Position numbers and translations under genes: made by a program. A stretch of DNA of 52,485 bases, the filler included, from Mitosporidium daphniae (Eukaryota): assembly GCF_000760515.2 (NCBI RefSeq). It is 2 parts of 2 records of this genome, joined end to end, with 100 filler letters (N's around TTAATTAATTAA, not from the genome) between each part and the next. Parts side by side here need not be neighbours in the genome. Positions count along the whole stretch, not along the records: positions 26,350 to 52,485 come from NW_013546151.1; 1 more part is not named here. One strand, written 5' to 3'. The notes beneath the pieces are model-generated. The model searched no databases. It was given only the letters and a program-made list of their open reading frames with translations, and had not been told where the DNA came from. Below are positions 14,601-47,647 of the stretch, piece after piece (position 1 is the first letter of the stretch; every line of letters begins with the position of its first letter).

Positions 14601-17600
14601 TTTTTCGCAGTAAGGCCCCTTAAATCCAGGCCTACATTGACACCCGACACCCGGCTCTGGGTCAAGGACACCATTTCCTTGACTTTGGGCAAGTGCCAGT
14701 TGCGCTAAGGTCAAAGGGACACCTCCACGTGTGGAGCACAATGAAAAATCACATCCAGGCGCTCTAGCCATTGCTGGATGGAGACATTGACTGTCTTCCT
14801 TGGATACTTTTGCTTCAATCGATAGCCACCCTTTAACAAGGGCATTTGGAGATATGGGCGCCGCTAATCTTTCCTTCCTGCCTGTAGAATGGTAAACAAT
14901 GTTATTCCCGCCAGAGTCTGGAAAAAGGCTAGCTGTGCCTGCACGTAGATCCATAAGCAATGCTTCAATCCAGTGTGCTGTTTCCAGCACCTGTGAGGGT
15001 ATTTTATCCGGATCTGGGAGACTCGACTGAAATAGGACCTGGTTTGGCTGCACAATTAATGGCTGGTCGCAATATGGTCCCGTCCATCCGGCTATGCACG
15101 TTTCCTCGTAGCAATAGAGAAGCGGATGCATCATATTTGGCAATCCATGCTCGCAGGCCAAGTCCCAGCAGTACGGGCCCCTCCAACCGGCCTTGCAAAT
15201 ACCAAGCTCACGATTTTGGAAGTTTTTTTTAAGCGAATGAAGAGGAGATGCCTCATCTGTTTCCGAAGAGGAAGAGGCTTCAAGTTGGCAGAAAGGACCA
15301 TAAGCATCCTCGCGCCTGCAAGGCGTTCCTTCCAAGCAAGCCCCGGAGCCTGAATCTAGATCTGGAATGCCCCACTCGCAGCGTGAAACCCATTGGCAAA
15401 GCAAACCAAATCTTTTCAACGTGGTGCATTTGGCGCATTTGATATAAAGAATATCCCAATGCTCGCAAAAACTCTCATTGCAAAGTGGCCCCCAAAAGCC
15501 CGGGAAGCACGGCCCACAAAGCTTAAGATGGGGGTCCCAAAGCCCATGATAACACGGCAAGTCATCTGCATCCAACTCACAGTATGGATTGAAAACCTGG
15601 TTTTTGTTGTCTAAAAGGGGCTCCCCCAAATTTTTTTGGTGACTTTGTGTTTCCGGTTGATGATAGCATGCTGAGCAGCGCCCATCCTGTGGGGCGCGAA
15701 TGATAAAATTGTCCGTACTACCACTGAGCAGCCTCCACATTTTCAACAAGTTTTTGTTCAAGTAATCACTCTCATATGAGCACCCATTTGAGCTCTCAAC
15801 CGCAACAAGTTTGGGTGGGAAGGGAAGTAATGCACCATTTTCGCTGAAATGGTCTATGCGCATCCCATCCGATCTGCAGATAAATCCGAATTGGCAGAGA
15901 GGAACATCGCATGCAGCGCCCTTCCAGCCTTGTTTGCACTGGAGGCAGTATCCGGTGGCTGTATCTAACATCCCATTAGCACAAATCGGTTCAGAACATT
16001 CGGAACCTCGCCAACCATATTTGCAGATGCACTTTCCGGTGAAGCGGTCTATCTCCGCCGTATGTTGCTTCTCGCAATGTGGAGATATAAGTGTGCAGAA
16101 GGTACCCCAGTACGGAAAAAGGCAATCGGAAGATCCTGGATTCGCGCCATCAACATAGGCCTGCATATTGCACCAAGACCCAAAGAAGCCCTTGCGGCAT
16201 GCTTTGCACCCATCTTTCGTGGTCGCTCCTATGCTATTGATGGAGCAAGAGGCTGCAAGCGAAGAACCGCACCATTTTCCAAGCTCTTCAAGTGTCATCA
16301 GAGGAAGTGCATCAGCATTACAACCATCAGTGCATGCGCTGACATCTTTGTTGAATAGTGTTTTGATGCCTGACCACCATGAGCTAGAGCTAGTCAAATG
16401 ATCATCCTCATCATGGGCACTAAGAAGGGGACTGTCCTTTTTTTCCGGTGTAACGCACATAGGTATTTCGCAAAAGTTGCCCAAGAAGCCTGGAGGGCAT
16501 CTGCCCTTACACCCAATCTCTGAGGTATCAGCTGAAACAGGGCAACGAGATCTCTGGCAGATGGGACCGGTCCAGCCGCGCTTACAAGCCTGCGCCCATA
16601 TTTGGCCCTCCGAAACTATAGACATCGATTGATCATCGTCATCAAGCTCTCCAACATCCATGAAGAGCCCATTGCTTTCAAAACAGTCTTTCCCAAAAAA
16701 TAGCGGATCTCGCCAGCAAGGATCAATGCATATGCCGTCTTTAGAGGCGGTATCGGTTTCTCCAGCCTGTTCATTGCATGATGTTGGTCTCGCTCTTTTA
16801 TATTGGAGTTCTTCGCCAGTTGCCTCAATTTGAACAGAACAGTGCTCGCCTGTACGTCCCGGCATGCAAAGTGTCCCATAGCAGGCAGCACTCAGATATG
16901 CATCCTTACCTCCATTCAGGGGTTCTGTGATCGGGATGATTGTGTCATCTTTTCCTAAGAGCACCGGCTGGATACAACCAGTCTCCTGGCAAAGATTTCC
17001 TCCAAAGATTTCGTGGTAGCAAATGCATCCATCATTTGTTGGAGAGGGTACACCATGTTGACAGGTGCTTTGCAAACAGTAGGGTCCTCCCCATCCAGGC
17101 TCGCATTGAGCGCACCACCTGGGGTCAATATCACCTCCCTGTTGTTCCCACATCATCGGCCACTGCATACACGTGGATCTCTCACATTTTGAGCCCATCC
17201 ATCCAGGATCACACTTGCAACCATGGCCATTTGGCAAGATCTTGCCATGTCCCCCGCAAATGAATTCGCTACCTTCGCAGTATGGCAGTGAATATTGCCT
17301 GGAATCACACGAAATGCATGTTCCATCTTCCCAATTAACGACGCCGTTCTGACACCGAGGCTTATCGCAATAAAACCCTTCAAATCCTGGCTTCAAGCAT
17401 GGCTGAATGCAGGGCAGTTCCGGCCATTTTTCGTAGTTCGGATTTCCATGCACACAGTGGAGCTTGCAGTCCTTTGTGCAGCCGCTTCCAGGTTTTCCGT
17501 TCATTTCAGAACCCAAATCGCATTGTTCACTGGTGCCCTCCATGAAGAAATAGTAATGTCCTGGGTGGGTGTGGCCCCAGTTACAGAAGATCGGAACCGT

Positions 17601-18452
17601 CATAAACGGATCCTCGTAACCACAGATGAGAGCATGGGGCATCAGACTTGTATAGCGACGACCATATCCGTGTGAAAGCCCTGCATGTGGTGCTGTTAGC
17701 TCTACAATACCGTTTCCGCAGTAGTGCAAAAAAACATTCCGAGTCTCCATGCCTGAATTACAGGCACTTGCAACCAAAGGTCCCCAGCGGCACTCCCGCC
17801 AACAGCCTACCTTTTCGCCATATGGACAATCATAGTTCATTGGAGGTGTGAGCATTGGAGCATATGGGCCCCCCATGGCACTGCGAGCGCCATCGCCAAG
17901 TTGCTCAAGTGCCTTGAATTCACAAGATTCTCCGGTGTTAATTACCCCGTCTCCACATACTGCTGGGCGTAACTCGTCTGAAAATACTGAGCGTAAATAG
18001 TGTAACACAGGCATTGGTGTGCCAGCAGGCGCACACTTGGCTTTTTCCAGCAACCCGATAGCGTATTGTTTCCCGGATCGAGGAAGCGAGTGCAAATGGT
18101 AGAATAAATCCAGATTCCATCCATCATAAATATTGCCATCTCCGCCTGCAGATGCAAACGACTTATCTGGGTCATATCTATTATCGGGCCTGATGATATT
18201 CTGCATATAAAGCCCATAGTCAATGGGTAAGTAAAACTCCGAATAAATTCGCCTATGAAATAAGGTTTGCGGAGAAGGAAATGCATTTAGCCTTGCTCCT
18301 GAGTAAGAGTCTATGGATCTCCAATTGAGAGGTTTATATCTTTTTTCCCTTGCCAACTCATGGAAGCATATTTGATTTGAAGAAATGATATGGTCCTTGT
18401 TGAAAAGAACGCAAACGAAAAGAAAAAAAAAGCAGATTCCCTTATGGGACAT
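11637..18452 (-). CDS. Giant (~2271 aa) Cys-rich, EGF/laminin-EGF-like repeat type-I membrane protein
   Basis: Single ORF. ATG 18452 begins a signal-like MSHKGICFFFLFVCVLF, followed by many CxxGW/FxGxxC repeats, CGDG/CGNG Cys-rich motifs, a C-terminal hydrophobic helix FLIFVIIVLLVVIAVLIIYIFIYL and a basic tail. Confidence 0.85.
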   Translation of the reverse strand: MSHKGICFFFLFVCVLFNKDHIISSNQICFHELAREKRYKPLNWRSIDSYSGARLNAFPSPQTLFHRRIYSEFYLPIDYGLYMQNIIRPDNRYDPDKSFASAGGDGNIYDGWNLDLFYHLHSLPRSGKQYAIGLLEKAKCAPAGTPMPVLHYLRSVFSDELRPAVCGDGVINTGESCEFKALEQLGDGARSAMGGPYAPMLTPPMNYDCPYGEKVGCWRECRWGPLVASACNSGMETRNVFLHYCGNGIVELTAPHAGLSHGYGRRYTSLMPHALICGYEDPFMTVPIFCNWGHTHPGHYYFFMEGTSEQCDLGSEMNGKPGSGCTKDCKLHCVHGNPNYEKWPELPCIQPCLKPGFEGFYCDKPRCQNGVVNWEDGTCISCDSRQYSLPYCEGSEFICGGHGKILPNGHGCKCDPGWMGSKCERSTCMQWPMMWEQQGGDIDPRWCAQCEPGWGGPYCLQSTCQHGVPSPTNDGCICYHEIFGGNLCQETGCIQPVLLGKDDTIIPITEPLNGGKDAYLSAACYGTLCMPGRTGEHCSVQIEATGEELQYKRARPTSCNEQAGETDTASKDGICIDPCWRDPLFFGKDCFESNGLFMDVGELDDDDQSMSIVSEGQIWAQACKRGWTGPICQRSRCPVSADTSEIGCKGRCPPGFLGNFCEIPMCVTPEKKDSPLLSAHDEDDHLTSSSSWWSGIKTLFNKDVSACTDGCNADALPLMTLEELGKWCGSSLAASCSINSIGATTKDGCKACRKGFFGSWCNMQAYVDGANPGSSDCLFPYWGTFCTLISPHCEKQHTAEIDRFTGKCICKYGWRGSECSEPICANGMLDTATGYCLQCKQGWKGAACDVPLCQFGFICRSDGMRIDHFSENGALLPFPPKLVAVESSNGCSYESDYLNKNLLKMWRLLSGSTDNFIIRAPQDGRCSACYHQPETQSHQKNLGEPLLDNKNQVFNPYCELDADDLPCYHGLWDPHLKLCGPCFPGFWGPLCNESFCEHWDILYIKCAKCTTLKRFGLLCQWVSRCEWGIPDLDSGSGACLEGTPCRREDAYGPFCQLEASSSSETDEASPLHSLKKNFQNRELGICKAGWRGPYCWDLACEHGLPNMMHPLLYCYEETCIAGWTGPYCDQPLIVQPNQVLFQSSLPDPDKIPSQVLETAHWIEALLMDLRAGTASLFPDSGGNNIVYHSTGRKERLAAPISPNALVKGWLSIEAKVSKEDSQCLHPAMARAPGCDFSLCSTRGGVPLTLAQLALAQSQGNGVLDPEPGVGCQCRPGFKGPYCEKWTCAHILKKVSDMSSSGNLIPRYFPENRDELVQALLAIGESATLSANALDLIQNVDSLLQALVSRIRFLSMDVVLEGEKLKPLIEASSTSWLSWRKVASDGRSLLESFLEALKLEAGEAHSASSALLQHRMASLERRAEDILPVGFMHLLRVLVFSQRDQKTDRFVFKLTEYHLTKVLFEAIPEAQRRIFPIDNYNHWKKSLEETLPRSEIILPTSFSPLRCLPGGIRVQRISGAKDLFMVTESVVEPEGVKRKVQQNHLAIIRRILQRKELLDLNPNFSDALLVPSENDFGQCSFCWKSRVTQEPDDIRKGILEVVHGNPELPFCKETIEGPLMKSSEKSVVDSFRRMGVQVPEEMACPPGFYGTGCQRTWCLEWDPDSSRCRRCSPGHHGHLCQWKSNCIHGDLDLESEQGLCKVDQALNRPRCNPPYYFGRFCNETRCIIPALGIQDGCSHGCLPGWQTLPVPNTGLGNYCDIPICVHGIPDLEHGYCKEGSCNPSFWGGQACDKPRKWCPASNTTQITDTFGVEVQLKPPWRPGYATIIASHTCGQCPPGWTGDLCNLPLCIHGSPDLENGGCYRCHDGWLKSLTCEEMACKNGIFNPKALIEGGSSKPSQWLWREFSSKEEPLCLACLGDWSGPDCSTPGCNPVTEMDPLTQKCLQCPLGRYGPKCTRIARCIHGILDENSLDGSCLSGSCRIGQGRFCDSSVCQHGQTDPRTLFCAYCYDGWISSDLSRPRCDIANCKNGRMLQKSYSIHAFECICMPGFEGPACDLKEKNSGADHNLTALCPLPKCDPIPILDCFAARKKSGENETTLNVEANGTREFLGLEPTAQIMVRERKCVKPPEGFPKSGTTASIIRILNWVKNFSSESSMGIRFKGDDPHDVQGNHNFLIFVIIVLLVVIAVLIIYIFIYLHRWRRIYKLALWIVRRLFCCFRRRSRRNGNAKDEDEDKEKEKEKMPIPHPNIKPRRNSISTPYRLEKRRFHID

Positions 18453-24900: not shown

Positions 24901-26250
24901 GCAGGTGGAGGAGCGCGATATGTTTATAAAGCAAGATAATATCGACTGTCTGGCATTGTCAGCCTCATCTAGCAAGAATTTATCGACGGCAACGCTTTTT
25001 TGTTTTGGATACGTCAAAATACGTGTGGAGCTGTCCTCCATGGTCTCCAAAAACATTTCAATCAGCAACGACCAAATCAGATTGACATTGAAGCAATCCA
25101 GATCTTCTGAGGAAAGAAATAATTCACCAAGTGTTTCCAATAAGTGGGCTCTGTACGAAGAAAATGCCATGCCATCCGACTCCCTTAAAGAGGCATGCAA
25201 GATATCGAAAAGCTGCTTGATATATGGCCTCATGTATGAGTGAAAGTATTTCAAAAACTGCCTAATCATGTAAATCGAGTTCTGTTTCAACTTTGCATTG
25301 CTAGATGTGGCCATTAAGGTGTTGAGGAGCATCTCTATGCTTTGATGTAGGGACTTCAGGATGATCATGGGGTTTTTTTCCGAAATCTTAGAGATAAGGT
25401 TGACACAAGAATGTTGCACCGTGAACGATTCGTCATTTAACCCAAGAACAATCAGATCTGAATAGTGGGGATAGGAAAGTATTTCGATAAAATTCTTCTT
25501 GTTGAGAGACGTGTAAACGCAATTCCTGATTTCTTCGTTGAAATCAAGAAGCCCCACATTAAGGATACGGCCGATCGTCTCGTTTGGAGGTGCTTGACAC
25601 GACAACAGTACCAAATCAGAACGGTTTATTGTAAAATATACAGATTTCTCAATTACATAACACAGGCAGATAATAGATTCTTCGCGGATCGATTTTGAAT
25701 CATGCTTGATGAAATGCAGAGAGATCCCAAGAGAAAACACATCAAGGGACAGGTTATGAAAGTTAAAATTATACAGAGCCCGAAGGGAGGCGATTATTTC
25801 TTGAAAATTGTCTTTGGGCTTGATGAGGTCCAGATTGAAGGCGAGCAAGTACTTTGAGGTCAAGTTGGAAACCCCGATGTCGAAAAGTGACACCGATATG
25901 ATTTCGAGAAGGTTATTTTGGATGTAGCTTAAATATTCCGGAAACAATGTGCTGATTTCAATCAGACATGACAGCAGTTGCTGCGTCAAGATGGGAATGC
26001 TTTTAGGAAAATAGGACGTACTTGTGGAGAAAATAATCTGAAGTATCTCGCTTACAAATGGGGAAAGCATGTTACTGCCTCCACAACATGATACTGCATT
26101 TTTGAAAAAATCGCATATGTAATCGTCGACCAAATAGGAGGCCGGCTTTTTCTTCAGCCTTCGTGTCAAAAATTCTCTGATGGAATCAAAAATGTCCCTA
26201 AAAAAAACAGTCATCGATTCCTTGAAAATTTGCACAAGTACGTCCTATTN
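18907..26250 (-). CDS. TOR: Target of rapamycin kinase (HEAT, FAT, FRB, kinase, FATC); 5' end lost in the gap
   Basis: WLQVIPQLIARI, FRB '[17 protein letters not shown]...AWDLY', [41 protein letters not shown] '[13 protein letters not shown]' is completed across a final 28-nt intron. Confidence 0.95.
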
Positions 26251-26349
26251 NNNNNNNNNNNNNNNNNNNNNNNNNNNNNNNNNNNNNNNNNNNTTAATTA
26301 ATTAANNNNNNNNNNNNNNNNNNNNNNNNNNNNNNNNNNNNNNNNNNNN
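26251..26349. other. Assembly gap with artificial six-frame-stop linker TTAATTAATTAA (26294-26305)
   Basis: N-runs flank a 12-mer that carries stops in all six frames. Both flanking genes lack their 5' ends. Confidence 0.9.
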
Positions 26350-29300
26350 GGCGGGGCTTGAAAATTTCGGCCTTTTCTGAATCTATCCTTTCAAGCCTGT
26401 TGGAATCGGCGACTTCTGCAGAAAAATCAACTTCATTCCTTCGGAACCAAAAGCTCAATTTGTTTTCTAGCTACATAAAGGAATGCAAACGCCTGGGCCT
26501 GTTAAACTGCGTTCCCGTTGAACTCCAGTCTGGAATCTTATCTCCGCTGTCAAATGGCTTCAACACTTGCTTTTTGAATTATCCCGTGCTTTTGAGCGCT
26601 TTCAAATTGCACGGTAACGATCGGGCTGTTGGCGAAGCCCATGCTCCAAACGAGCTTTATCGGGTGATTTCCAACATTGAGGCCAACTTTGTCGGGTTTT
26701 TTGAATTCATCCCGGGCTTCAAAAAGGCTGTCATATCGATTTCGGGGCTCTCCACGATTGACCAGACGTCCAAGATTCACAGAATCGTTGGTACTCTATT
26801 TGAGTGGCTGTGTATCAATTCTGTTCTTGCAGACTCTAAGGTGTCCAGATTCCATTTGCTGGCCTGCAAACTTGTTGGCAACTGGTCCGTTTGTAATGCC
26901 AGTCAATGCTGCATGTTGGTCAATTCCGCGGATGTTTTTGATGTGTTATGTGTGGTTGAGCTGATTTCAAATAGCATGCCAACGTTGTCAATCGAAAATG
27001 TGTCCAAACTTATTGGCTCCTTGAAATCGGAACTTGTTGACATGCAGCACAAAACCAGGCATTTTGACGGCAAGAATGCCATTTCAAACGAGTTTGTTGA
27101 CAAGCTTGATTTGCTTCTGACCGAAGCTCGGGCATGTGCTTGTAAACATGGCTTTATTACATCGTTGAGCACGAGTCCCTTGTACGAAAAACGGGCTCCA
27201 CTCGAACGCAGCGATTCTTCATCTTGTGCTGCATTTACGGACAAAATTCTGCTGTTGGCGCAACACGTGATTTCGGTGTTGAATTCGATCTCAATACCAC
27301 GGGATGTCGGATTTGGCTCAATTGAAAATACGATTCCGCAGCTTTATGTATTGTTCAAGATGCTATTTTCGGATGCCTTTTATGCCTCGCTCCACGGGCT
27401 ATTAGACATTTCTCCAAATCCATGTGGCTTGCCATTGATGACGATGCTTGTATCGATGCTACACGTGATGGTCCGATTGTTTCTTATTTTTGTAAATTCA
27501 CTCTCCGAGTTATCGATTCACACGATTGCCTCAATTGCAGCGATTTATGAGAACAACTTTGGAGAGGTATCGACATCATCAAAATCGGACCCCACAACAG
27601 CTGATGGCGAAGGTTGTGAAGCGCAACAAGGCCCCATGCGTGCAGATGATGGCACCGAGCTTCCAAAAGGCATGGCAGACTGTAAGGACGTCCCTTCTCA
27701 ACAATCCAAGAACGTTTCAAATGAAATTGAATATGAGGAGCAAATATCCGATGTCAAGCAACAATCGGACGAAAAGCACAGTGAACAAGATCCCGAAGCA
27801 GACAAACAAAACGACATTCAGCCGCAAGCAGAAAATGAGGCTGCCGTAAGTACTAGTGAAAAGATGGATGGCATGCAGGATTGCAGAGACCAATCGGAAT
27901 TTGAGAAAAACACCCGATCCGATCAAAATGATGCTCTTGACGAGGCAGAGACAGAAGGTGCTGATACTTTAGCTGCTTCACAAGAGGACCGCATTTGTGA
28001 CAATCAGTTTAAGGAACAGCTAAATGAGGAAGAAGATTCCAGTGGCATGGCAAATGACGAAATACTGGAAAAACTGAACACCGATTCGTTTCCGCAGCAT
28101 CTTGATCAAAGCATTTGGCAGGATGACCTCTCTTCCGATAATGAATTGTCCGAGGTCGATGAGGGTGGTGATTTTGCACACCAGGACGCTACCCCCGCTG
28201 CACGAGAGAAAGATCTTGCTCGCAGAAATGACAAATCTGTTACGGAAAAACCTGGCTCCTCATCAAGTTGCGAGAGAAAGCCTAAACAGGAAGAGAGTTC
28301 TCTGGCTAATGTCGATTTATTGGACCAGGATAAAGGTATCTGTGGTGTTGATGCGGATGATGTTGATGCGGCTATGGAAGATAATTTATGCAAAGATCGC
28401 ATTTCTATGGACGAAGACGTTGATGCCGATCCAAATGGCTTTGACACCGAATCAAAAAGTCTTGATGCTGACCCAAATGCTTTGCAGGATCATACAGAGG
28501 GTATGGATGATGAGAATATTGAAGCCTCTGCCCAGCCAATGGATCCTTATCAAGAGGAGGCTCTTGCGTATGGCGAAATCCCACAAAACTTGGCCCAATT
28601 TACAGATGAAGAGAAGAGCCCATCACAAGGCACGAATGATGATATTAACTCGGAAAACATCGGCATCGATTGCAACTCGGATAACATCGGCACCGATTGC
28701 AACTCCGAGAAACAGGATCAGTTCGGAAAGGCCTCAAATGGTCAGCTCGATGATGCTTCAAACAAGGAACGTGCGAACCTGATTGATCAACTGCTTGAAT
28801 TACCTCCACAACACAACGACCTGCAGTGTAGGAGGATATTAGGGGATCAGCTGGCCACGTGGAGAGACCTCTTGATGTCGCTGGAAAATTCTGCTCCAAA
28901 CTCTGCACCGGAAAATGGCTCGCAGAATCCAGAGGTCTTTGAATATGATTTGGACGACCCACTCGCGTCCAATGTAGACTCTGCGCACGTTCTTTCTCAA
29001 ATATCGAAAGAAGATTTTAATGATGCGCCATCCTCTTCTGCATTGAATAACCCTATTCAAGGGCAGCGGGGTAAGAGCCTTCCATTACAACAGCCATTTG
29101 ACCAAATTTCTTTGAACAAAGACAATGATGGCTCACATTCGGAAGCTGAAACTTGTAACGCAAACGTTGAAGGCTTGGATTCCTCTTTCTCGACAATTGA
29201 GACTGAACCGCAACATGATTGCATTGAAGATATGGACGATGACCGTCCCTCTGAGATGGTTTTATCCCCCGGCTATAGGAACCATAATTGGCCAGAATAC

Positions 29301-30173: not shown

Positions 30174-30264
30174 ATAAATTATTGTTTAACACTACGAGCA
30201 CGCAACTCCACACGTGCGGAGGCCGCCCAAAAAAATTCCACACGTCGGGTTATTTATTTTTAGA

Positions 30265-30330
30265 ACAAAACTCATTCATTTGGGGGACAAAATTCATTCA
30301 TTTGGGGGACAAAATTCATTCATTTTTGGA
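30265..30330. repeat. 22-nt tandem repeat x3 overlapping the CysRS stop codon
   Basis: acaaaa(c/t)tcattcatttggggg twice plus a diverged third copy. Confidence 0.85.
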
Positions 30331-32792
30331 ACGAAATAACTTTTCCTGCTGCTGATATTCTTTTATCAGCTTTTTTATGCGCGATTTTGGCAATTCCTCC
30401 CCTGCAGCATCATGTGTAGGGATTCCCTATAAATAAATTCAAACGCAGTTCCAACCTGTTCGTCAAATTTTGAATACAAAGACAGATCCTTGAACATTTC
30501 CGAAGGGCAAATTAGTGCTCTGGTATGTCTTTGTGCCTGGCGCTGTTGAGATATGGCTGCCATTTCTTTCTTTTTGTGCAGCGAGGCCTGCATGCTCTAC
30601 GTGATTTTAAACTAGTCAAAAAACCTGCTCCTTCTCTTCTTTCATCCTTTTTAAAGTATCCTGGTCAAGGATCTTTACAAGCGCAGCTAGATGGCCACTT
30701 CCTTCAGTGGTCCTATCCTCCAAAATAACGCCAAGATCGGGGCAACCATTGTCTCGAAGCTGATCGCACAATTCGAGAAGCATTTTTGGACTGATTTGCT
30801 GGCCTTTCTGAAGCGCTTCAAAGGAGAGGGCCCTTAGCTTATCCCTGAAGGATGAAATCAGGTGTGCAGATTTGGCAAATAAGGAGCTCTAGTTTAAAGT
30901 AAGCATTGATGGGAAATGCCATACCTGCGACACGGTGCATTGGTCGTTAAGGTTCGCAAAACTAACCCCAAAGGCCTTTAAAATCTTCTCAATATAAGCA
31001 GAGATTTCACTAAGCAATTGCGAGTAAACGGACGCATCTCCCTTGTTTTTCAAGTACACTCTGCAATCGCTCATCAGAGCGTTAAGCGATTTCAAGACAG
31101 AGGGCGTATCAAACGAGTCGCAAAGGGAAGCATGCACGGCTTCTTGGCAAGCAAACAGAGACTGCGACAAGCTTTTCTCTTCATCGCCAAAAAACGATAC
31201 AAATTGGGAGTCTTCTCCAAGGCCTCTAATTACCGCATCAACCTGTGCAAAAAAATTAACAAATGAAGCTTCAAGAGAAACAGTCTCCAACATCGAGGTC
31301 TCTTTGTAATCAAGAGTGGAAGACCATGTATGGGTGAGGAAAAATAATCTCAATTGACGAGAGGTCCATCTAGACAAAGCTTCCTATGATAAAGTTGATC
31401 GGATCCAGGGCACCAACCTTGATGGTGATGAAATTTTTCAAACTCTTGGACATTTTTTGCCCCTCAATGTGAAGATGTCCTGTGTGCAGGAAATAATTAA
31501 CCCATTGCTCACAATCGTACTGTGCCTAATCGTTAATTGCTGTTTTAACCCGATGGACTACCTCTGATTGAGCAAGCTCATTGTCATGATGCGGGAAGGC
31601 AAGATCAACACCACCGGAATGGATGTCAAGAACACCAGGGATCACATCTCCGGCCATTGCCGAGCATTCAATATGCCATCCGGGGCGACCGGGCCCCCAG
31701 GGAGATGGCCATACAGGCTCTCCTGCTTTCGAATGCTTCCAGAGCGCAAAATCGGCATTGGAACGCTTGCCGTGAGATAAATTTCCAAGAGCGCCCTCGC
31801 CCTCTTCAAGGAGCTTTTGGCGGTCAGCAGACTGTGGGCACAGCTTTGCATATGTGTGCTTTGGAGAGTTGTTAAACTTCAAAGTGTCAAAGTAAATTGA
31901 ACCATCGAGCTGATACCTAAAAATAACAGGGCATTGAAAGGCTACCCGTAGCCGTTGTTAATAATTTCCTGGATGCAAGAAACTATCTGCGGAATGTATT
32001 CGCTTACGCGAGTAAGCACAGCGGGCGGTAGCACGTTCAACGCTTCCATATCATCAAAGAACTCTTTTTCCCAATACTCTGGCAATTCCTTGAATATTTT
32101 AGGATCGGAAAGAGTATGTCCATATTGCGAGTCCAAATAGGAGCCCAAAAGCGCGTGAATAGATTCGGGGATGGTGGAGTGTTCTTTTCCTTTGACAAAC
32201 GCAAGGGCATCAATAAGAGCCTCAAGAAATGCAGGAGGCTCTTCAGCAGCATTTTTCGCTCCGTGTGAAAGCAAAAACGAGCGAATGGACTCGGAACAAG
32301 TAAACGTCGATAATTTCGAAAGATCCACTTGATCAGAAGATAGAGCAAGTCGGGAAGAAAGATAATGCGCTACAGCCTTTTCGACTAGCTTTACGATACC
32401 ACTGGGAGCAAGCTCAGGCTTTTCGGCCCCGGACAGCTGGGATAAAAGTTGGGATGTAAGAAACTCTTGACGGGCTCGAAGAATGATCTTATCATCGACA
32501 TCCGTGATGTTCATTACAAACTGGATGTTGTATCCAAAGTAGTCCGTCATAATTCGCCGAATGATATCAATGGTCACATAATTTCTGCATGTAAACTAAG
32601 CTCAAAATGATACCTTGCATGGCCCATATGCGATGCATCATAGACTGTCGGTCCGCAAGAGTACCACCTGATCAGCGCGTCGGCACGTTCGGGGATGAAT
32701 TCGGTCTTTTCTTTGGCAAGCGTGTTCAAAATTTTCAATTTCGGTTGCATCGATTTCGAGGTTGTTGGCATCTTCCATTTGCTTGTGGCCAT
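30316..32792 (-). CDS. CARS1: Cysteinyl-tRNA synthetase, multi-exon; possible upstream in-frame start at 32984
   Basis: [64 protein letters not shown] and KMSKS. All frame breaks fall on short GT-AG introns. Confidence 0.95.
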
Positions 32793-32853
32793 TTTTGACG
32801 TGGTGGAAAGCGCTTTCGACACGGAAATATATTTGAAAAGTTTGGGAAACAGC

Positions 32854-32979
32854 ACTAATGTGATGATTAAGCTTACTAATCTGCAGATTAAACTTGCTAA
32901 TCTGCGGACTAAACTTACTAATCTGCGGCTTAAACTTACCAATGTGCCGATTAAACTTACTAATGTGCCGATTAAACTT
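32854..32979. repeat. 21-nt minisatellite, 6 degenerate copies, upstream of and in frame with CysRS
   Basis: Consensus actaat(c/g)tgc(c/g)gattaaactt starting at 32854, 32875, 32896, 32917, 32938 and 32959. Confidence 0.9.
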
Positions 32980-33085
32980 GCCATTCGGCATTTGATGCCT
33001 CTGAATCTAAAGATGCTCGCGGTTTTATTCAATATGATCGACACATAAAGCAAGCAAATTTGCTTTTTATGAACATATGCCGGCG

Positions 33086-33802
33086 TTAGGAACCGAACTT
33101 TTCTGCTATCCCCATTTTAAACGGAAGATCTTTAAAAATAAAAGAATCAAGGGAGCTGCTTGCAAGCGTTCCTGATTCCAGGGCATTTGCAATGACATCG
33201 TCTGGGCGTGTGATTCTATCGCACCTTGAATATCCAGGACGTATCAGCAACAAGACAATATAAATGTCGTCCGAGTCTTCAATAATATTTACAACAGGCA
33301 ACGAAATCTTCTTTCCCAATACACTGGAGCAATTTTCCCTGGCAAGTTGTCGCTCTTTCCATCTCTCTTTGTCTGGGACAGATAGCTTGGCAACGATATA
33401 AACAAACATGTTGTTATGTCTCAGCTCTTCCAAAAAATTGAGCAAGTTATTAGATGTGTTCATGAGCATAAAAAGACCCGATCCCGGTATCAGTTTGTCG
33501 GGAATATAAGCAGGGGCGCTCATCCGCCGAGCCGCTCTATTGTTCTCAAGAATGTATATGATGTCTTTTGGAGAGTGGCTATTTGCATCCAACAAATCTA
33601 CATTTGCAGGGAAAGAGCCAAATAAAAATCCGGAAGAAAATCTATAATTTAGCAAACTTTCAGGAAAATGGTCAAGGGGCTCTTTAAATACCAAACACAC
33701 ACAGTCATGGAACATTACAACAGCACGTCCCGGGGGAAGCAATTTATTAAAATTTAAGCAAACCCCTTGATTTAACGAAATTGCACTATGGAGATGTTGC
33801 AT
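33086..33802 (-). CDS. Hypothetical protein (238 aa)
   Basis: Long ATG-initiated ORF filling the space between neighbours. No motif recognised. Confidence 0.55.
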   Translation of the reverse strand: MQHLHSAISLNQGVCLNFNKLLPPGRAVVMFHDCVCLVFKEPLDHFPESLLNYRFSSGFLFGSFPANVDLLDANSHSPKDIIYILENNRAARRMSAPAYIPDKLIPGSGLFMLMNTSNNLLNFLEELRHNNMFVYIVAKLSVPDKERWKERQLARENCSSVLGKKISLPVVNIIEDSDDIYIVLLLIRPGYSRCDRITRPDDVIANALESGTLASSSLDSFIFKDLPFKMGIAEKFGS

Positions 33803-33870: not shown

Positions 33871-34675
33871 TTATTTAGGAATATCATTTTTCCTGGATAG
33901 CCTTCTCGATGTGTGTAACGGCGCTTCACCTCCAGAGGAAGTGAACGTGCCTATCATTTTGCATATTTGGCCAAGGGATTGTTTATAAGAAAGCCATTCT
34001 TGTCTATCGCGTAGCGATGTCTCCAGAAGGGATGACTTTTTCTTTTCTAACTCATTAATTTCGGTGAGAATGGCATTTTTTGTGGAAAGAAGTTTGCGTA
34101 GTGTAGCTTTGACCCTGTCATAATCATCACCCAGAAGAAGGATGCCGTAGTCTGGAAAGGCAAGCTCCTGCGGAAGGACATTGACAGGGCAGCCCTCATC
34201 TTCATCCACCATAAAGGGCTCATCACTTCTGAAAACAACACAAAGATCATTTTCCATCGCATTGTGTGGTTCTTGCTGTGGATTTCCCCCAATGTTTTCG
34301 TTGCCATCTTCGGCTCCTTGCCCAGGAGAGATGGTGGGAACCCCTTGCTCCTCTTGCTGCTCCTGCTTGCCAGTATCGAATGCAATTCTGGAGACGTCGT
34401 CAAGAAACTCTGAACCAATCCACATTTTTCTATTGCATAAGATGAGCATGGCTGAGATACCTAAACGAATGGAGCTCCTCAAATTGGGATTTTAGCAGCA
34501 TCAGCTTATACTCTAAATCGGCAATGGTTCTTTTCTTCTCGGCCAATAGCATTTGAAGCTGTTGCATTTGGCTTCGAAGGTGGCGAAACTGGGCCATCTT
34601 TGCATAATGAGACGATGAAAATTCAATCAGCTGGGAATGGCTGAATTTCGACGGGAAGCACACTGGGAATGACAT
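33871..34675 (-). CDS. Hypothetical coiled-coil protein, 2 exons
   Basis: A 31-nt GT-AG intron (about 34430-34460) joins ORFs 34430-34675 and 33871-34482. Two heptad-rich segments flank an acidic linker. Confidence 0.6.
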
Positions 34676-37499: not shown

Positions 37500-37576
37500 T
37501 TAAATTTTAACTTGGTGTATTGAAATAAAATTTAAATGATGTAATCATCAAATGAACACCACAATGACGACGATGG

Positions 37577-37630
37577 AGCTGATCACGATGATGAAGCTGA
37601 TCACGATGATGAAGCTGATCACGACGATGA
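37577..37630. repeat. 18-nt tandem repeat x3 in the eIF3c-PPX1 spacer
   Basis: agctgatcacgatgatga twice plus agctgatcacgacgatga. Confidence 0.85.
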
Positions 37631-37773
37631 CGATGATGGCAAATGGGCCAGGATTCACCGCCGCTATTGCCAGGGCATTTCAAGTTTAAAGCTAAAATGC
37701 AAGTTTGGGTTGAAACCGGTGTAGCTCGGTAAAATTGCGTTCGTAGCGCCATTTATTTTACCATTCGAAAAAC

Positions 37774-39237
37774 ATGCCCACTCCACATTTTATCGTTGGC
37801 AACGAAAGCTCCGACTTGGATTCCATTGTATCCTCCATTGTGGTGGCCAAGTATGGTAACGAGCTTTTCGGTCGTGTCGGCGATGTCGACACCAAACATA
37901 TTGCGGTGCTGGTCACACCTGGAGACATGTTCTTTTTTAAAAAGTATTGTTCCTATGTTGTTGAAAATATAATGGATGTCGATTTAACGGATACTTCTGA
38001 AATCCTTTTCATCGATGATTTCATGGCGACCGCAAAATGCTGCGATTCCATTTGTGTTTCCCTCGTGGATGGACCGCAAATTCCATTGTTTCTCCGGCTC
38101 TTTAATTACAACTTCCAAGTGTTCAACATTATCGATCACCATTGCTTTGATGCGAGTGCACGCTATTTGGGTGAGTGTGTTTTTATCGATCCCTGTGCGT
38201 CAAACTGTACCAATGTGTTTCGAGTCATGTGGGAAAAGATTTTCCATAAAAACGCATCGACTAGCACATTGGAGTCTATCTTTTTTGAGCATCCTTCACA
38301 TGCAAAGCATCGATTTTGGGAAAATCCACATTGGTTTGCGGAGCTTCTGGAGGCCAAAAAGGAGCCTGTTGATAGGGTTCTGCTGGCACTTTTGTGCGTG
38401 ATTGTTGTGGACTCCATTGGAATGGACATGGATGGCTCCGATAAGGTTACTATCCACGATGTAAAGGCTTGTCTCTCCATTCTCCAATATCTTCGGATTG
38501 GAAAATTTATTTCTTTGTGTCCAGAAGAATTTGAGCAGCCATTACTATTTGCGTTTGTAAGGGAGAATCATCTGCAGCTCTTCGGCTCCATATTTGCTCA
38601 TCTCAAGGAATACTCGTCTTTTTCGGCGACTGCGTTGCTTGTATCGCCCCAAATTGTGCTGCAGCTTGACTACAAAGATTATTTATACGAGTTTCGGGAT
38701 GCAAAAGAGCGTTTTTTTGCGTACGGCATTTCCAGTATTTCTTGTTCCTTGTACGAGTTCGTTTCTGATTGTAGCGTTGAAAAAGAAACCGCCTCGTTTG
38801 CGGACTTTTCCTCAAAGCTAGTCGCGCACTTTGCGTTGAAAGCAAAATTAATTCCAAATTACTCGTTTCTCTTTGTCATGACCTGTCAGTCGAGAGAGAT
38901 CATGACCAATGACAGCTTGATTGCAGATGACGCCAAGGACAGCTTGATTGCAGATGACGCCAAGAGCAGCTTTATTGGCGCAAGACAATTGTCTTTTTGC
39001 TCGCCTGCCGATTATTTTGGAACCTTGGACATTAACGATGCTGCAGAATGTGTTTTGGAAAATTTTGAACAATTATTTCCTGGGCTGATTTCGAATTTGG
39101 AGTTGAAATTTGTATCTGCTCTTGTGGCAAATTCGTTTGTCACGGTGTCGTTTATTCAAGGTAAATACAAAATGTCCAGGAAAGCCATACAGCCCGTGAT
39201 CCACGAATCGATTGGCCATAGAAGTAAACCACATTAG
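37774..39237 (+). CDS. PPX1: DHH-family exopolyphosphatase (PPX1/Prune-like)
   Basis: GNESSDLDSIVS, IIDHH, ASNCT, LDYKDY, C-terminal SRKAIQP. Contains a 27-nt exact duplication at 38911-38964. Confidence 0.8.
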   Translation: MPTPHFIVGNESSDLDSIVSSIVVAKYGNELFGRVGDVDTKHIAVLVTPGDMFFFKKYCSYVVENIMDVDLTDTSEILFIDDFMATAKCCDSICVSLVDGPQIPLFLRLFNYNFQVFNIIDHHCFDASARYLGECVFIDPCASNCTNVFRVMWEKIFHKNASTSTLESIFFEHPSHAKHRFWENPHWFAELLEAKKEPVDRVLLALLCVIVVDSIGMDMDGSDKVTIHDVKACLSILQYLRIGKFISLCPEEFEQPLLFAFVRENHLQLFGSIFAHLKEYSSFSATALLVSPQIVLQLDYKDYLYEFRDAKERFFAYGISSISCSLYEFVSDCSVEKETASFADFSSKLVAHFALKAKLIPNYSFLFVMTCQSREIMTNDSLIADDAKDSLIADDAKSSFIGARQLSFCSPADYFGTLDINDAAECVLENFEQLFPGLISNLELKFVSALVANSFVTVSFIQGKYKMSRKAIQPVIHESIGHRSKPH

Positions 39238-40260: not shown

Positions 40261-41297
40261 ATGAAGTCAATGGCTAGGGCCAAGTTTGAGCAGACAATTG
40301 ACGAAAACGTAACCAATGGCCATTCAAAGGGCTCTAAACTATTAGTATGACCATCCTGAGCTTGTTAAACGACACATTATCCAGACTTTGAGGAAATTTG
40401 CCTCGTTGGCTCCGTACTTGGATGGTTTCCAAACAAATGGCATTATCCCACACTTATTTACTATTGTTGCTTTTAGATCCGCATGCTCGTTTAATTGTGG
40501 GCACCCTGACGGTGGAGAACAACGAGAACACATATAGCATTCCGGCCTCCATTTCGCTTTCCTCGACATATCCATTTGGGGGCGATGATGCGGTTCCTGT
40601 GGTCCTTAAAGTGATTCCCACCCCTTTGATGAGCATAAACCTGGATTGCCCCTATATTTTCGAAAATGGAGTGTTCAAATACAGCCACCCATTCCTTTGT
40701 GAAGGAGAAGATGGCAATCTGATTATCCAAGTTATTTCAGAGGCTATAGCTAAATTTGCTGCTATCCCGCCAGTGTTTGCTATTGATGATAGCGGCCAAC
40801 GTGAGCAAGTCGCTTTTGGAAAAGAAACAGACCTCTCGCCTGTGAGTATTGAACATGGTCTCTGTGTGGCTGAAGCAGACGAAAAAGAGGAAAATCCTAT
40901 GCCGGAGAAAGAGGAAAATCCTATGCCGGAGAAAGAGGAAAATCCTATTCCGGAGAAAGAGGAAAATCTTTCCTTTGAAGAAATTTCTGGCTCCTCTTTT
41001 AATTCAGAACATAGAATCAAAGGTAATTTTTATGCCCAGCTTATGGCTGAGCCTCCAGACCTCGCTGCCAAAGACATGGACTATAGGAACATTCCAAATT
41101 CTTCAATTGATGAAGCCATTAGACTCCTTTCAGATAGAATATTTTCCAGAGAAGGTTGCATTGATGACCTCGTTAACGCAAGTTTATCTTTTTTGACTCG
41201 ATCTAGGAGTTACTTGTTTGGACCAAAGCAAAGTTCTACACCACCCTTCGTTCCACTTGAGATTGGAATTTCTTTACACTCCAGCAATAAAATTTAA
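40261..41297 (+). CDS. VPS23: ESCRT-I Vps23/TSG101-like (UEV domain plus divergent C-terminal core), 3 exons
   Basis: GTLTV..NTYSIPASISLSSTYP, NGVFKYSHPFL, FAAIPPVFA. Introns 40309-40345 and 40440 (or 40425)-40476. Confidence 0.7.
40881..40967 (+). repeat. 24-nt coding tandem repeat x3.6 (EKEENPMP)
   Basis: ga(a/g)aaagaggaaaatcctat(g/t)ccg repeated. Confidence 0.9.
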
Positions 41298-45632: not shown

Positions 45633-46672
45633 CTACTCCTTCGTATCTGATTTGCTTTTCTTGGATTTTTTGTTGGCCATCAGAGTATGCATGATATCCC
45701 ATTCTTCTTGGGAGAGCACATTTGCATCCGCAGGCTTTGGAGCTTCCTTTGGCACATTTTCACGGTCAGATGGAGTATCGCTTTCTCCAGAATACTTGTT
45801 TTTGGAGCTGGTTTTGCTTCTTTTGGATTTTGAAACAGTTAGAGCCTCAGCATCCGCATGTTCGATAGATGACAATTGAAGTATTTCCGTCGATGGTGCT
45901 GAAATTTCTTCTTGATGCGACTGTGATTTATCCTTCTTTTTGGACGATTTCTTTTTGGCCGGGAATTCGTTTTCCTGAACTGCGGATGTAGCCTCCTCTA
46001 TGACGGGCTCCATTTCATGAAGTTCTGATTCCTTAATCTCCAAAACCAGGTCCTTTTCCTCCTCGCAGGCAGACGAGGCTGCCAGGATTTCTTCTGCGAG
46101 CGGTGTGGGGAGGAACTTTTTTTTCCTTCTCTTTTGATCTCCATTGTACGCTTCGGGGAATTTAGCCTGGTTAATTTCCATGGCCTTCAAAGAATAGCCC
46201 TAGGGATTCTCGTATGGAAAATGCAAACCCTTTTTTTTTCATCCGATTCTTGCTTCCACAATTCAATGGCCTGGTTATAGATTTCTTTGGAACTTTGCCC
46301 TTCATGAGCTTTATCGAGCCTAGGCTTTACCTCTGAATAATAAATCGTAAATCCATTGACACGGCCCACCCGTTCTCTTGTAGAAGAAACCTCTGCATAT
46401 TGTAAAGATAACCGATTACCTTTTATGGCTTTCTCGGCGCCGTTGGAGAGGGGGGTTTGGGATACACACTCAACATTTGAACATAGGATGTTGAAAATAT
46501 TTTCAAAAGATTTTGAAATGCTTAGAAATTCATTCTTCAGTGCATGTACGGCCTCTTGTGTAAAAAATACATGGTTGCTGGAAGTGCCGGCACCCGCACC
46601 AGCTGTATTTTCCGCATCACTGCTTGACAACGCCGTTTGACCGGCTGATGGTTTTCTGGATGCTTTAGTCAT
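45633..46672 (-). CDS. HMG-box protein with Lys/Glu/Ser-rich tail (Hmo1-like architecture), intron 46200-46228
   Basis: RVNGFTIYYSEVKPRLDKAH...KEIYNQAIELWKQESDEKKR|GYSLKA is an HMG box. The tail is K-rich. Confidence 0.7.
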
Positions 46673-46730: not shown

Positions 46731-47373
46731 TCAAGTTGATTTGTGCATATTGAATCTCTTGGCGTAAAGTGAAGAGGTGCCGGCAAAGATTTCTGCTATT
46801 TCGTCATATAGGCCTCTCTCGAGATTTCTCACCGTATTGTACTCTCTCTGTGTTGCGGCTTCAACCAGCCATCGAATAGCAATGCCGTTCTGTCTATGGG
46901 GAGTCAATACTCTTGGCAGAGTTTGTTTGCGCCCCATCATGGATTTGTACTCCAATAGTGGCTTGACGCTATCAATGGCCAATTGGATTGGATTATCAAT
47001 TTGATAGTCCAGCTTTAGCCTGGCATTCACTCTTGCAAGAATGGCATTCTGGCTTACTCCACCCTTGATCAACGACCCAAGAAAGTTGGGACACAAGCTG
47101 GTGGGTTTTGTAGCCACATGTCCCGTTTCTAATGCCGGGTTATAAAGCTTCCATATGGCGCGTACCTTTTTCGTTGCTAGCTATGTCCAAGTTTGGATCC
47201 GCTCTGGACAAACTTTCTGTGATCAGTATGCTTGCAGCCATTTCGTCTGCCACAAAATTCCTTTCTTGTTTGATAATTTCTCGCATCGGAATGTCCTTGG
47301 CTGCATAGAACCTCAAGCCAGCTCGAATATGACGGCTTCCCGCTATGCGGGGAAACGCCCTACCTGCCACCAT
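46731..47373 (-). CDS. MRPS7: Mitochondrial ribosomal protein uS7m, 2 exons
   Basis: Arg-rich, acid-free N-terminus MVAGRAFPRIAGSRHIRAGLRFYA, then NPIQLAIDSVKPLLE, QNGIAIRWLVEAA, LYDEI, KRFNMHK. Confidence 0.8.
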
Positions 47374-47381
47374 TTGATTGT

Positions 47382-47452
47382 TAATTAAAAGGACGAATTT
47401 CAAGTGCTAATTAAAAGAACGAATTTCAAGTGCTAATTAAAAGGACGAATTT
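47382..47452. repeat. 26-nt tandem repeat x2.7 directly upstream of the uS7m ATG
   Basis: taattaaaag(g/a)acgaatttcaagtgc starting at 47382, 47408 and 47434 (partial). Confidence 0.9.
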
Positions 47453-47647
47453 TAAATTGACAAATAAATTGATGTTGGTTACCTAATCGGCGCCATCCCA
47501 AAGGAGGGTTACCATAATTGGCGCGTAACTAGGGTGTAAAAGAAGCGAAATGTTATGATCAACACTCGAAACCAATATTTTTTACTGAACTATATGACTG
47601 CCAGTTGTGGATTTTCAATTCCAAATATTTGTAAATTAACGGAAAAT

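What the first reader, a model, noticed from the sequence alone, without database searches (positions are those of the whole stretch)
32793..32984. Minisatellite builds an in-frame, presequence-like N-terminal extension on CysRS
Seen: ATG 32984 lies 64 codons upstream of, and in frame with, the probable cytosolic start at 32792. Six 21-nt units encode heptads in MASLIGTLVSLIGTLVSLSRRLVSLVRRLASLICRLVSLIITLVLFPKLFKYISVSKALSTTSK, which has no D/E, 9 R/K, and is rich in S/L. Known: mitochondrial presequences have this composition, 7-residue periodicity favours an amphipathic helix, and fungal aaRS genes are often dual-targeted by alternative starts. The uS7m gene here implies mitochondrial translation. 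Inference: a targeting peptide built or extended by tandem-repeat expansion.
Basis: partly seen in the sequence, partly recalled or inferred. Interest (0 to 1): 0.7.

Follow-up and report, generated by a model that had tools for sequence, protein, structure and literature searches.

The report
Minisatellite-lengthened mitochondrial targeting peptide
In a water-flea parasite, a 21-base DNA repeat that varies between isolates lies in frame in front of the only annotated cysteine-tRNA ligase gene, where it likely lengthens and strengthens an older address tag that would send a second form of the enzyme into mitochondria.

Summary
ATG 32984 opens 64 codons in frame with the annotated CysRS start 32792 (0 D/E, 9 K/R), and six 21-nt units encode heptads. 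The window matches Mitosporidium daphniae, whose databases omit this extension.

New here: (1) the array is a live VNTR, with 5- and 6-unit alleles in 2 of 4 runs laid; (2) the closest relative (47/60 identical core) has a repeat-free, D/E-free 29-residue extension, equal to the window's 64 minus five heptads; (3) a published table lists one CysRS-domain protein in this species, plus Tom20 and Tim44; (4) all five arginines and the amphipathic moment come from the repeat. So the peptide was likely extended, not built, by the repeat.

Against: no RNA reaches the region; the two extensions are not significantly similar; the mitogenome lacks tRNA-Cys; an out-of-frame ATG lies 7 nt upstream; the units carry splice-donor-like sites; a non-coding minisatellite abuts the uS7m start in the same window; and no Arg lies near a cleavage site.

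Verdict: probable dual-targeting extension of the yeast CRS1 type with an unusual polymorphic repeat inside it. Untested.

The parts
32982..32984 (-). Upstream in-frame ATG, proposed start of the long (mitochondrial) form; C at -3, G at +4
   Evidence: its use as a start is inferred
32854..32979 (-). 21-nt minisatellite, six diverged units, polymorphic between isolates; encodes heptads that carry all five Arg of the extension
32793..32855 (-). Unique 21 codons (VLFPKLFKYISVSKALSTTSK), Lys/Ser/Thr-rich, no D/E, no Arg; starts with a GTG codon, a possible near-cognate start
32790..32792 (-). Annotated (cytosolic) ATG; A at -3, G at +4
30315..32792 (-). CysRS gene body, 751 aa, 8 exons, 7 introns of 28-36 nt
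32638..32991 (-). Out-of-frame ORF of 117 codons from ATG 32991, reading through the array and overlapping CysRS exon 1; it would come into the CysRS frame if an intron of 3n+1 nt were cut from the array
32871..32981 (-). Six donor-like hexamers (3 GTAAGT, 2 GCAAGT, 1 GTAAGC) at the unit junctions, with YAG acceptors between them
   Evidence: no RNA covers them
33024..33061 (-). AATAAA 45 nt and AAATTT 77 nt upstream of ATG 32984, in the 101-nt gap after the upstream gene's stop at 33086
   Evidence: function not shown
33086..33715 (-). Upstream tandem gene of unknown function (database protein P0229, 209 aa); it limits the room for a promoter
30252..30337 (.). 22-nt minisatellite at and after the CysRS stop codon, non-coding
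46731..47456 (-). Internal control: uS7 gene (ATG 47373, Arg-rich N-terminus, one inferred 37-nt intron) with a non-coding 26-nt minisatellite (47379-47456) ending just upstream of its ATG

Best explanation
The single CysRS gene likely makes two proteins: a cytosolic enzyme from ATG 32792 and a longer form from ATG 32984 whose N-terminal extension is predicted to direct it into mitochondria, and a polymorphic 21-nt repeat has likely lengthened an older extension of about 29 residues to 57-64. Shown: the frame, the repeat, its alleles, the gene structure, and a repeat-free extension on the closest relative's called protein. Inferred: one heptad next to the upstream start was duplicated again and again; point changes gave the middle units arginines on one helical face, so a weak Lys-only ancestral signal became a strongly amphipathic one. 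Inferred by analogy with yeast CRS1: a minor longer transcript, or leaky scanning past the weak-context ATGs 32991 and 32984, sets the ratio of the two forms. Because the mitogenome has no annotated tRNA-Cys, the imported enzyme would charge an imported cytosolic tRNA-Cys.
For: One PF01406 protein in M. daphniae against 2 in P. saccamoebae and 2 in R. allomycis (PMC12449221 Table S4). Tom20 1, Tim44 1, Tim17-family 3, M16 peptidases 6. Yeast CRS1 gives a mitochondrial form from a longer transcript (PMC7600831; PMC7358010). 51 of 212 homologues examined have a presequence-like extension before a Met at the same place, median 25 aa. P0232 is 47/60 identical in the core (next best 36/60 among 261 stored proteins) and has a D/E-free, repeat-free extension of 29 residues to the Met that aligns with 32792 (26 to an earlier Met); 64 minus five heptads is 29. 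A 29-codon stretch that is open, D/E-free and has a start within one codon of a set place occurs at 0.4-1.0% of window positions. Array and unique part each look presequence-like at about the 3-4% level. Six of eight other arrays with a period divisible by three that I examined lie inside long ORFs. Alleles keep the frame and stay free of D/E. Single-sequence AlphaFold2 gives one helix over residues 2-59, block-mean pLDDT 84-95 over residues 1-40.
Against: No RNA covers the extension: the two RNA-like runs stop at or before 32744, which is uninformative. The P0232 and window extensions are not significantly alike (local score 17 against shuffles 20.6 +/- 4.1; global 6 against 4.3 +/- 7.3), so homology rests on position and length. 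P0232 is one automatic gene call whose DNA I could not see; its first codon may not be ATG, and 10 of 39 exon-1 hits have some called extension, 3 of them D/E-free. Its extension is a poor presequence (0 Arg, moment 0.26; only 1 of 44 control extensions lacks Arg). All three Mitosporidium mitogenomes lack annotated tRNA-Cys (PMC12534020 Table 4), and in Sileneae plants loss of an mt-tRNA was not always followed by predicted retargeting, cytosolic CysRS among the examples (PMC10375062). 64 aa exceeds all 51 presequence-like controls (max 55). The window allele has no charged residue before position 20 and no Arg in the last 29 residues. ATG 32991 comes first and is out of frame. Frame-keeping alleles are automatic for a 21-nt unit and show no selection. 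A non-coding minisatellite sits directly before the uS7m ATG.
Confidence: 0.57

Rival explanations
1. The array is neutral promoter or 5' UTR DNA, and there is no long form. Mitochondria get cysteinyl-tRNA already charged from the cytosol, or the core N-terminus carries a cryptic signal.
For: The mitogenome lacks tRNA-Cys. Short minisatellites are common here (17 TRF rows in 52 kb), and two flank genes without coding, one just before the uS7m ATG. Three of six frames read through the array anyway. Both annotations start at 32792. Import of charged tRNA is a recalled model from apicomplexans; my search did not retrieve a passage for it.
Against: It needs several coincidences: a period divisible by three, an open D/E-free frame across both array and unique DNA, an ATG just before the array, and an extension of matching length in P0232.
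Confidence: 0.17
2. A mitochondrial form exists but uses only the unique 21 codons, starting at the near-cognate GTG 32855 (as yeast ALA1 and GRS1 use ACG and TTG). The array lies upstream as non-coding DNA, with the transcript starting inside it.
For: 21 aa is near the control median of 25. The segment is D/E-free with 4 Lys. Non-AUG mitochondrial starts are established for aaRSs. The uS7m array ends just before its start codon, a similar layout.
Against: The segment has no Arg and a moment of 0.23 (last 29 residues). P0232's extension is 26-29 residues, closer to the ATG 32984 reading. The array's own coding-like features would be chance (about 3%).
Confidence: 0.1
3. The array is spliced. 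Unit junctions form donor-like hexamers and YAG acceptors; cutting 3n+1 nt brings ATG 32991 into the CysRS frame, or creates an ATG at the last junction, giving shorter D/E-free basic extensions.
For: GTAAGT occurs 14 times in the window, 3 of them in the array. Every enumerated 3n+1 intron within the array gave an open, D/E-free extension, and one candidate (31 nt) lies within the 28-37 nt range of the eight introns seen or inferred.
Against: None of those eight introns uses GTAAGT. Most candidate lengths (22, 43, 64, 85, 106 nt) fall outside the range, and the 38-nt options leave no in-frame ATG. The hexamer may be a by-product of the duplication junction. No RNA evidence either way.
Confidence: 0.1
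4. The extension is translated but acts as a hydrophobic signal or membrane anchor (ER or outer membrane) rather than a matrix presequence.
For: The first 19 residues are uncharged in the window allele. Kyte-Doolittle 19-mer means reach 2.13 at residues 28-46.
Against: Arginines interrupt the helix, X10 and X14 alleles have Arg at residue 13, P0232 has no long hydrophobic run, and a secreted essential aaRS fits the single-gene need less well.
Confidence: 0.06

Closest known systems
Saccharomyces cerevisiae CRS1 (YNL247W) mitochondrial echoform
   Same: Single cytosolic-type CysRS gene with an in-frame upstream start that adds a basic, acid-free N-terminal extension.
   Different: The yeast extension is 13 aa of unique sequence, and the form is shown experimentally. 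Here it is 57-64 aa, two thirds tandem repeat, polymorphic and untested, and the mitogenome lacks tRNA-Cys.
Yeast VAS1, HTS1, ALA1 and GRS1 echoforms
   Same: Alternative AUG or non-AUG starts add 20-46 aa targeting peptides.
   Different: The passages read describe no repeat origin and no length polymorphism.
Retargeted cytosolic aaRSs in Sileneae plants after mt-tRNA loss (PMC10375062)
   Same: Loss of an mt-tRNA goes with a cytosolic aaRS gaining an N-terminal transit peptide that has no homology to other genes.
   Different: Those peptides are read as arising de novo from upstream sequence; the passages read name no tandem-repeat source, and CysRS was not retargeted there.
Coding minisatellites (VNTRs)
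   Same: Unit divisible by three, variant units, whole-unit gain and loss between isolates.
   Different: It lies in a presumed targeting peptide of a housekeeping enzyme, not in a surface or low-complexity domain (the usual setting, recalled).

Membership tests
Eukaryotic cytosolic-type CysRS (class I, PF01406) | PF01406 catalytic domain with HIGH-like and KMSKS motifs | tested here: met
   Pfam above cut-off; HMGH and KMSKS in P0001, which the window's exons encode. Motif names are recalled.
Eukaryotic cytosolic-type CysRS (class I, PF01406) | Closest relatives are eukaryotic cytosolic CysRSs of about 750 aa | tested here: met
   Best 120 of 7777 hits are 41-48% identical eukaryotic-type proteins, apart from P0001 itself.
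Dual-targeted aaRS echoform (yeast CRS1 type) | One gene for the specificity, no dedicated mitochondrial enzyme | tested here: met
   Published Pfam count of 1 (PMC12449221 Table S4). This counts annotated proteins; I could not search the genome itself.
Dual-targeted aaRS echoform (yeast CRS1 type) | In-frame upstream start adding an N-terminal extension | tested here: met
   ATG 32984; the same frame in the X10 and X14 alleles.
Dual-targeted aaRS echoform (yeast CRS1 type) | Transcript and translation that include the upstream start | tested here: inconclusive
   RNA-like contigs end at 32744, short of both starts; no raw reads were listed.
Dual-targeted aaRS echoform (yeast CRS1 type) | Long form located in mitochondria and needed for mitochondrial translation | not testable with these tools
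   Needs import or complementation assays.
Dual-targeted aaRS echoform (yeast CRS1 type) | Cognate tRNA present uncharged in the organelle | tested here: inconclusive
   No tRNA-Cys annotated in 3 of 3 Mitosporidium mitogenomes; import is implied, its charging state unknown.
Cleavable matrix presequence (TOM/TIM23/MPP) | Net positive charge, no acidic residues, rich in S/L/R | tested here: met
   +9, 0 D/E.
Cleavable matrix presequence (TOM/TIM23/MPP) | Amphipathic helix | tested here: met
   Moment 0.84 against 0.32-0.55 (10th-90th percentile of 44 controls); helix 2-59 predicted. The heptad period inflates the moment.
Cleavable matrix presequence (TOM/TIM23/MPP) | Arg at -2, -3 or -10 of a cleavage site near the mature start (motif recalled) | tested here: not met
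   No Arg in the last 29 residues, only Lys. So it is not filed as a canonical cleavable presequence; it may still work like one.
Cleavable matrix presequence (TOM/TIM23/MPP) | Import machinery present in the organism | tested here: met
   PF02064 1, PF04280 1, PF02466 3, PF00675 6.
Cleavable matrix presequence (TOM/TIM23/MPP) | Positive call by MitoFates or TargetP | not testable with these tools
   Neither program is available here.
Minisatellite VNTR | Head-to-tail units of 10-60 nt | tested here: met
   21 nt x 6.0.
Minisatellite VNTR | Copy number or unit order differs between isolates | tested here: met
   X14 has 5 units; X10 has 6 with another duplicated unit; X12 and X13 match the window. 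X10 and X14 come from one study, one contig each.

The most novel reading that the evidence does not exclude
When Mitosporidium lost its mitochondrial tRNA-Cys and its second CysRS, the cytosolic enzyme was retargeted with a weak Lys-only leader. In M. daphniae a still-mutating minisatellite then supplied the whole Arg-bearing amphipathic helix, so that isolates differ in import efficiency by repeat allele: a VNTR acting as a tuning knob on dual targeting of an essential enzyme.
Probability: 0.2. Interest if true: 0.78.

Novelty: new variant of a known kind. Interest (0 to 1): 0.5.

Why it matters
Dual-targeted CysRS is known, so the gene's likely job is ordinary. The raw material is unusual. 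How targeting peptides arise is usually put down to de novo change of upstream DNA or borrowing from another gene. Here a likely before state (repeat-free relative) and several after states (5- and 6-unit alleles) can be read directly, and each can be tested in a yeast import or complementation assay. It also flags an unannotated long form in two M. daphniae annotations, and bears on how the microsporidian lineage with a remaining mitogenome supplies cysteinyl-tRNA without a mitochondrial tRNA-Cys gene.

Tried and rejected
No whole genome is held, so no genome-wide search for a second CysRS and no genome-wide base rate of upstream in-frame ATGs. No RNA holder was listed as such; the RNA-like contigs X19 and X20 do not cover the extension, and X17 does not either: not evidence either way. 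8 of the 24 listed runs were laid. The metagenome scan returned 80 loci of 30-45% identity and no close relative; the viral scan with P0232 found none. Pfam finds nothing on the 64-aa extension or on the out-of-frame minus-strand ORF; the Atlas gave no usable hit for the extension or the upstream gene. The exact 136-aa ORF is not in the protein collection. An apparent L-x-L-x-P-K match between the window and P0232 extensions did not survive shuffling and is not used as evidence. Frame-keeping alleles were rejected as evidence of selection. Only 5 of 63 single changes to a unit give a stop or D/E, so unit divergence has no power either. The AAATTT motif upstream of 32984 is weak: it occurs 120 times in the window and within 110 nt of 6 of 12 starts examined. 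Three look-ups of earlier findings returned nothing. Nishimura 2019 and Haag 2014 are not held and are cited only through other papers. No complex prediction was run.

Full report
Identity and gene. The first exon's best database match is the CysRS of Mitosporidium daphniae. Both database annotations, P0001 and P0106, begin at ATG 32792. Eight window exons from 32792 translate to P0001 exactly, with seven introns of 28-36 nt; six of these are seen spliced in contigs of runs X19 and X20. The position of ATG 32792 matches the cytosolic start of homologues.

Observation. The frame stays open upstream to 33116 without another ATG. A second ATG at 32991 is out of frame and opens 117 codons that overlap exon 1. 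In a null test with criteria chosen after seeing the data, a random 21-nt array passes (open, no D/E, at least 5 K/R, moment at least 0.6) in 3.0-3.6% of trials, and 21 unique codons pass (open, no D/E, at least 4 K/R) at 3.5-4.0% of positions. Each is modest; together, on a gene with a prior for dual targeting, they exceed chance.

The array is a live VNTR. Of four runs laid on 32450-33500, X12 (possibly the window's source) and X13 match the window, X14 lacks 21 nt at 32941, and X10 has 12 differences, all inside the array. Resolved into units, X14 has five and X10 has six, lacking the first duplicate and carrying an extra hybrid unit near the 3' end. Both keep the frame and stay D/E-free, which any whole-unit change would do. 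X10 and X14 are single contigs from one study (depth 14.7 and 6.2). X15 matches the window over 32577-32970 but does not bridge the array.

An older, repeat-free extension. A near-length search found P0232, an exon-1 gene call on an 86-kb ENA contig. It is 47/60 identical to the window's core, against at most 36/60 for the other non-self proteins among 261 scored. It carries a D/E-free extension without repeats, 29 residues to the Met that aligns with 32792 or 26 to an earlier Met. The window's 64 residues less five heptads are 29. A 29-codon stretch that is open, D/E-free and has a start within one codon of a set place occurs at 0.4-1.0% of positions. The limits are real: the two extensions do not align better than shuffles, the start codon of P0232 could not be seen, and 10 of the 39 exon-1 hits have some called extension, 3 of them D/E-free. 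I read this as moderate support that the upstream start is ancestral and that the repeat lengthened it.

What the repeat adds. The last 29 window residues have 4 Lys, no Arg and a moment of 0.23; the P0232 extension has 2 Lys, no Arg and 0.26. Control extensions of 44 homologues have 0.32-0.55 (10th-90th percentile), and only 1 of 44 lacks Arg. The full 64 residues reach 0.84, and all five Arg lie in the three middle-type units. AlphaFold2 without an alignment predicts one helix over residues 2-59. The uS7 protein in the same window starts with an Arg-rich N-terminus, so this organism likely still uses Arg-type presequences. The extension is atypical in three ways: longer than all 51 presequence-like controls among 212 homologues examined (median 25, max 55), uncharged for the first 19 residues in the window allele, and without Arg near a cleavage site.

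Need for a mitochondrial form. Table S4 of PMC12449221 lists one PF01406 protein for M. daphniae, two for P. saccamoebae and two for R. allomycis, and lists Tom20, Tim44, Tim17-family and M16 domains. I saw rows of that supplement and passages of the main text. Whether the relatives' second protein is a mitochondrial CysRS is untested. PMC12534020 (passages and Tables 3-4) reports mitochondrial protein genes and rRNAs but no tRNA-Cys, -Asp or -Thr in three Mitosporidium mitogenomes, with a caveat on annotation software. So tRNA-Cys is likely imported. It could be charged in the matrix by an imported cytosolic CysRS, as after mt-tRNA loss in Sileneae (PMC10375062, passages), or arrive charged, which would remove the need; in Sileneae the cytosolic CysRS was not predicted to be retargeted.

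Mechanism. By analogy with yeast CRS1 (PMC7600831, section 3.2 part 1 read; PMC7358010, passages), a minor longer transcript or leaky scanning would yield the long form. ATG 32792 has the strongest context; 32984 and 32991 have C at -3. Room is tight, 101 nt after the upstream stop with an AATAAA 45 nt before ATG 32984, but the tandem gene starting at 46672 has an AATAAA 39 nt before its ATG. RNA does not decide the matter: the contigs stop at 32744.

Rivals. (a) Neutral non-coding repeat: minisatellites are frequent here, and a 26-nt one ends just before the uS7m ATG. Of 11 other arrays examined, 6 of 8 with a period divisible by three lie in long ORFs (one straddles a stop, one is unresolved), while 2 of 3 with other periods are non-coding (one unresolved). 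(b) A GTG start at 32855 using only unique DNA. (c) Splicing of the array at junction donors, which would bring ATG 32991 into frame; none of the eight introns seen or inferred uses GTAAGT, and most candidate lengths are out of range. (d) A hydrophobic signal or anchor.

Novelty. Dual-targeted CysRS is known. Three searches for a targeting peptide made or lengthened by a tandem repeat (listings only) showed no such case by title and abstract start; the library lacks most subscription journals. Other papers were seen as passages only: PMC6349667, PMC5381614, PMC5701793, PMC13685798, PMC4589312, PMC8007984 and PMC9978631. PMC5701793 supplied lineage context and PMC4589312 the AAATTT motif; the others added nothing on this locus. 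I rate it a new variant of a known kind: a probable echoform leader with a polymorphic coding minisatellite inside it, confidence 0.57, interest 0.5.

Noticed in passing
window 47379-47456: A 26-nt x 3 non-coding minisatellite ends just upstream of the uS7m ATG; each unit holds an AAATT-type motif, so it may multiply a promoter element.
   Followed up: partly
window 30252-30337: A 22-nt x 3.4 minisatellite begins at the CysRS stop codon, so the gene has a repeat at each end.
   Followed up: partly
window 28647-28714, 38906-38977, 40884-40968, 37564-37638: Further 18-27 nt tandem duplications, three inside long ORFs (a midasin-like ORF by recall, a DHH-domain ORF, a UEV-domain ORF). Short tandem duplication seems a frequent mutation type in this genome.
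   Followed up: partly
window 11637-18452 (minus strand): A single ORF of 2271 aa, very rich in Cys/Gly repeats of EGF-like look, with a C-terminal hydrophobic segment and basic tail; likely a large surface protein. Not scanned.
   Followed up: no
window 33086-33715 and 33871-34449 (minus strand): Two upstream genes annotated as hypothetical (P0229, P0231), with no Pfam hit; the first also has no usable Atlas hit.
   Followed up: partly
window 32695-33048 (plus strand): An antisense ORF of 117 aa runs through the array as a Leu-heptad pattern and was called as a protein on 4 Logan contigs (P0227); probably a by-product of the repeat.
   Followed up: partly
window 31963, 31980, 32068, 32376: Single-base differences shared by X17, X19 and in part X20 mark a second CysRS haplotype.
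   Followed up: no
window 26250-26293 and 26306-26349: Two runs of 44 N in the window, away from the finding.
   Followed up: no
window 31526-31561: The two annotations differ by 2 residues at the 5' end of this intron; the RNA-like contigs support the 36-nt intron of P0001.
   Followed up: yes
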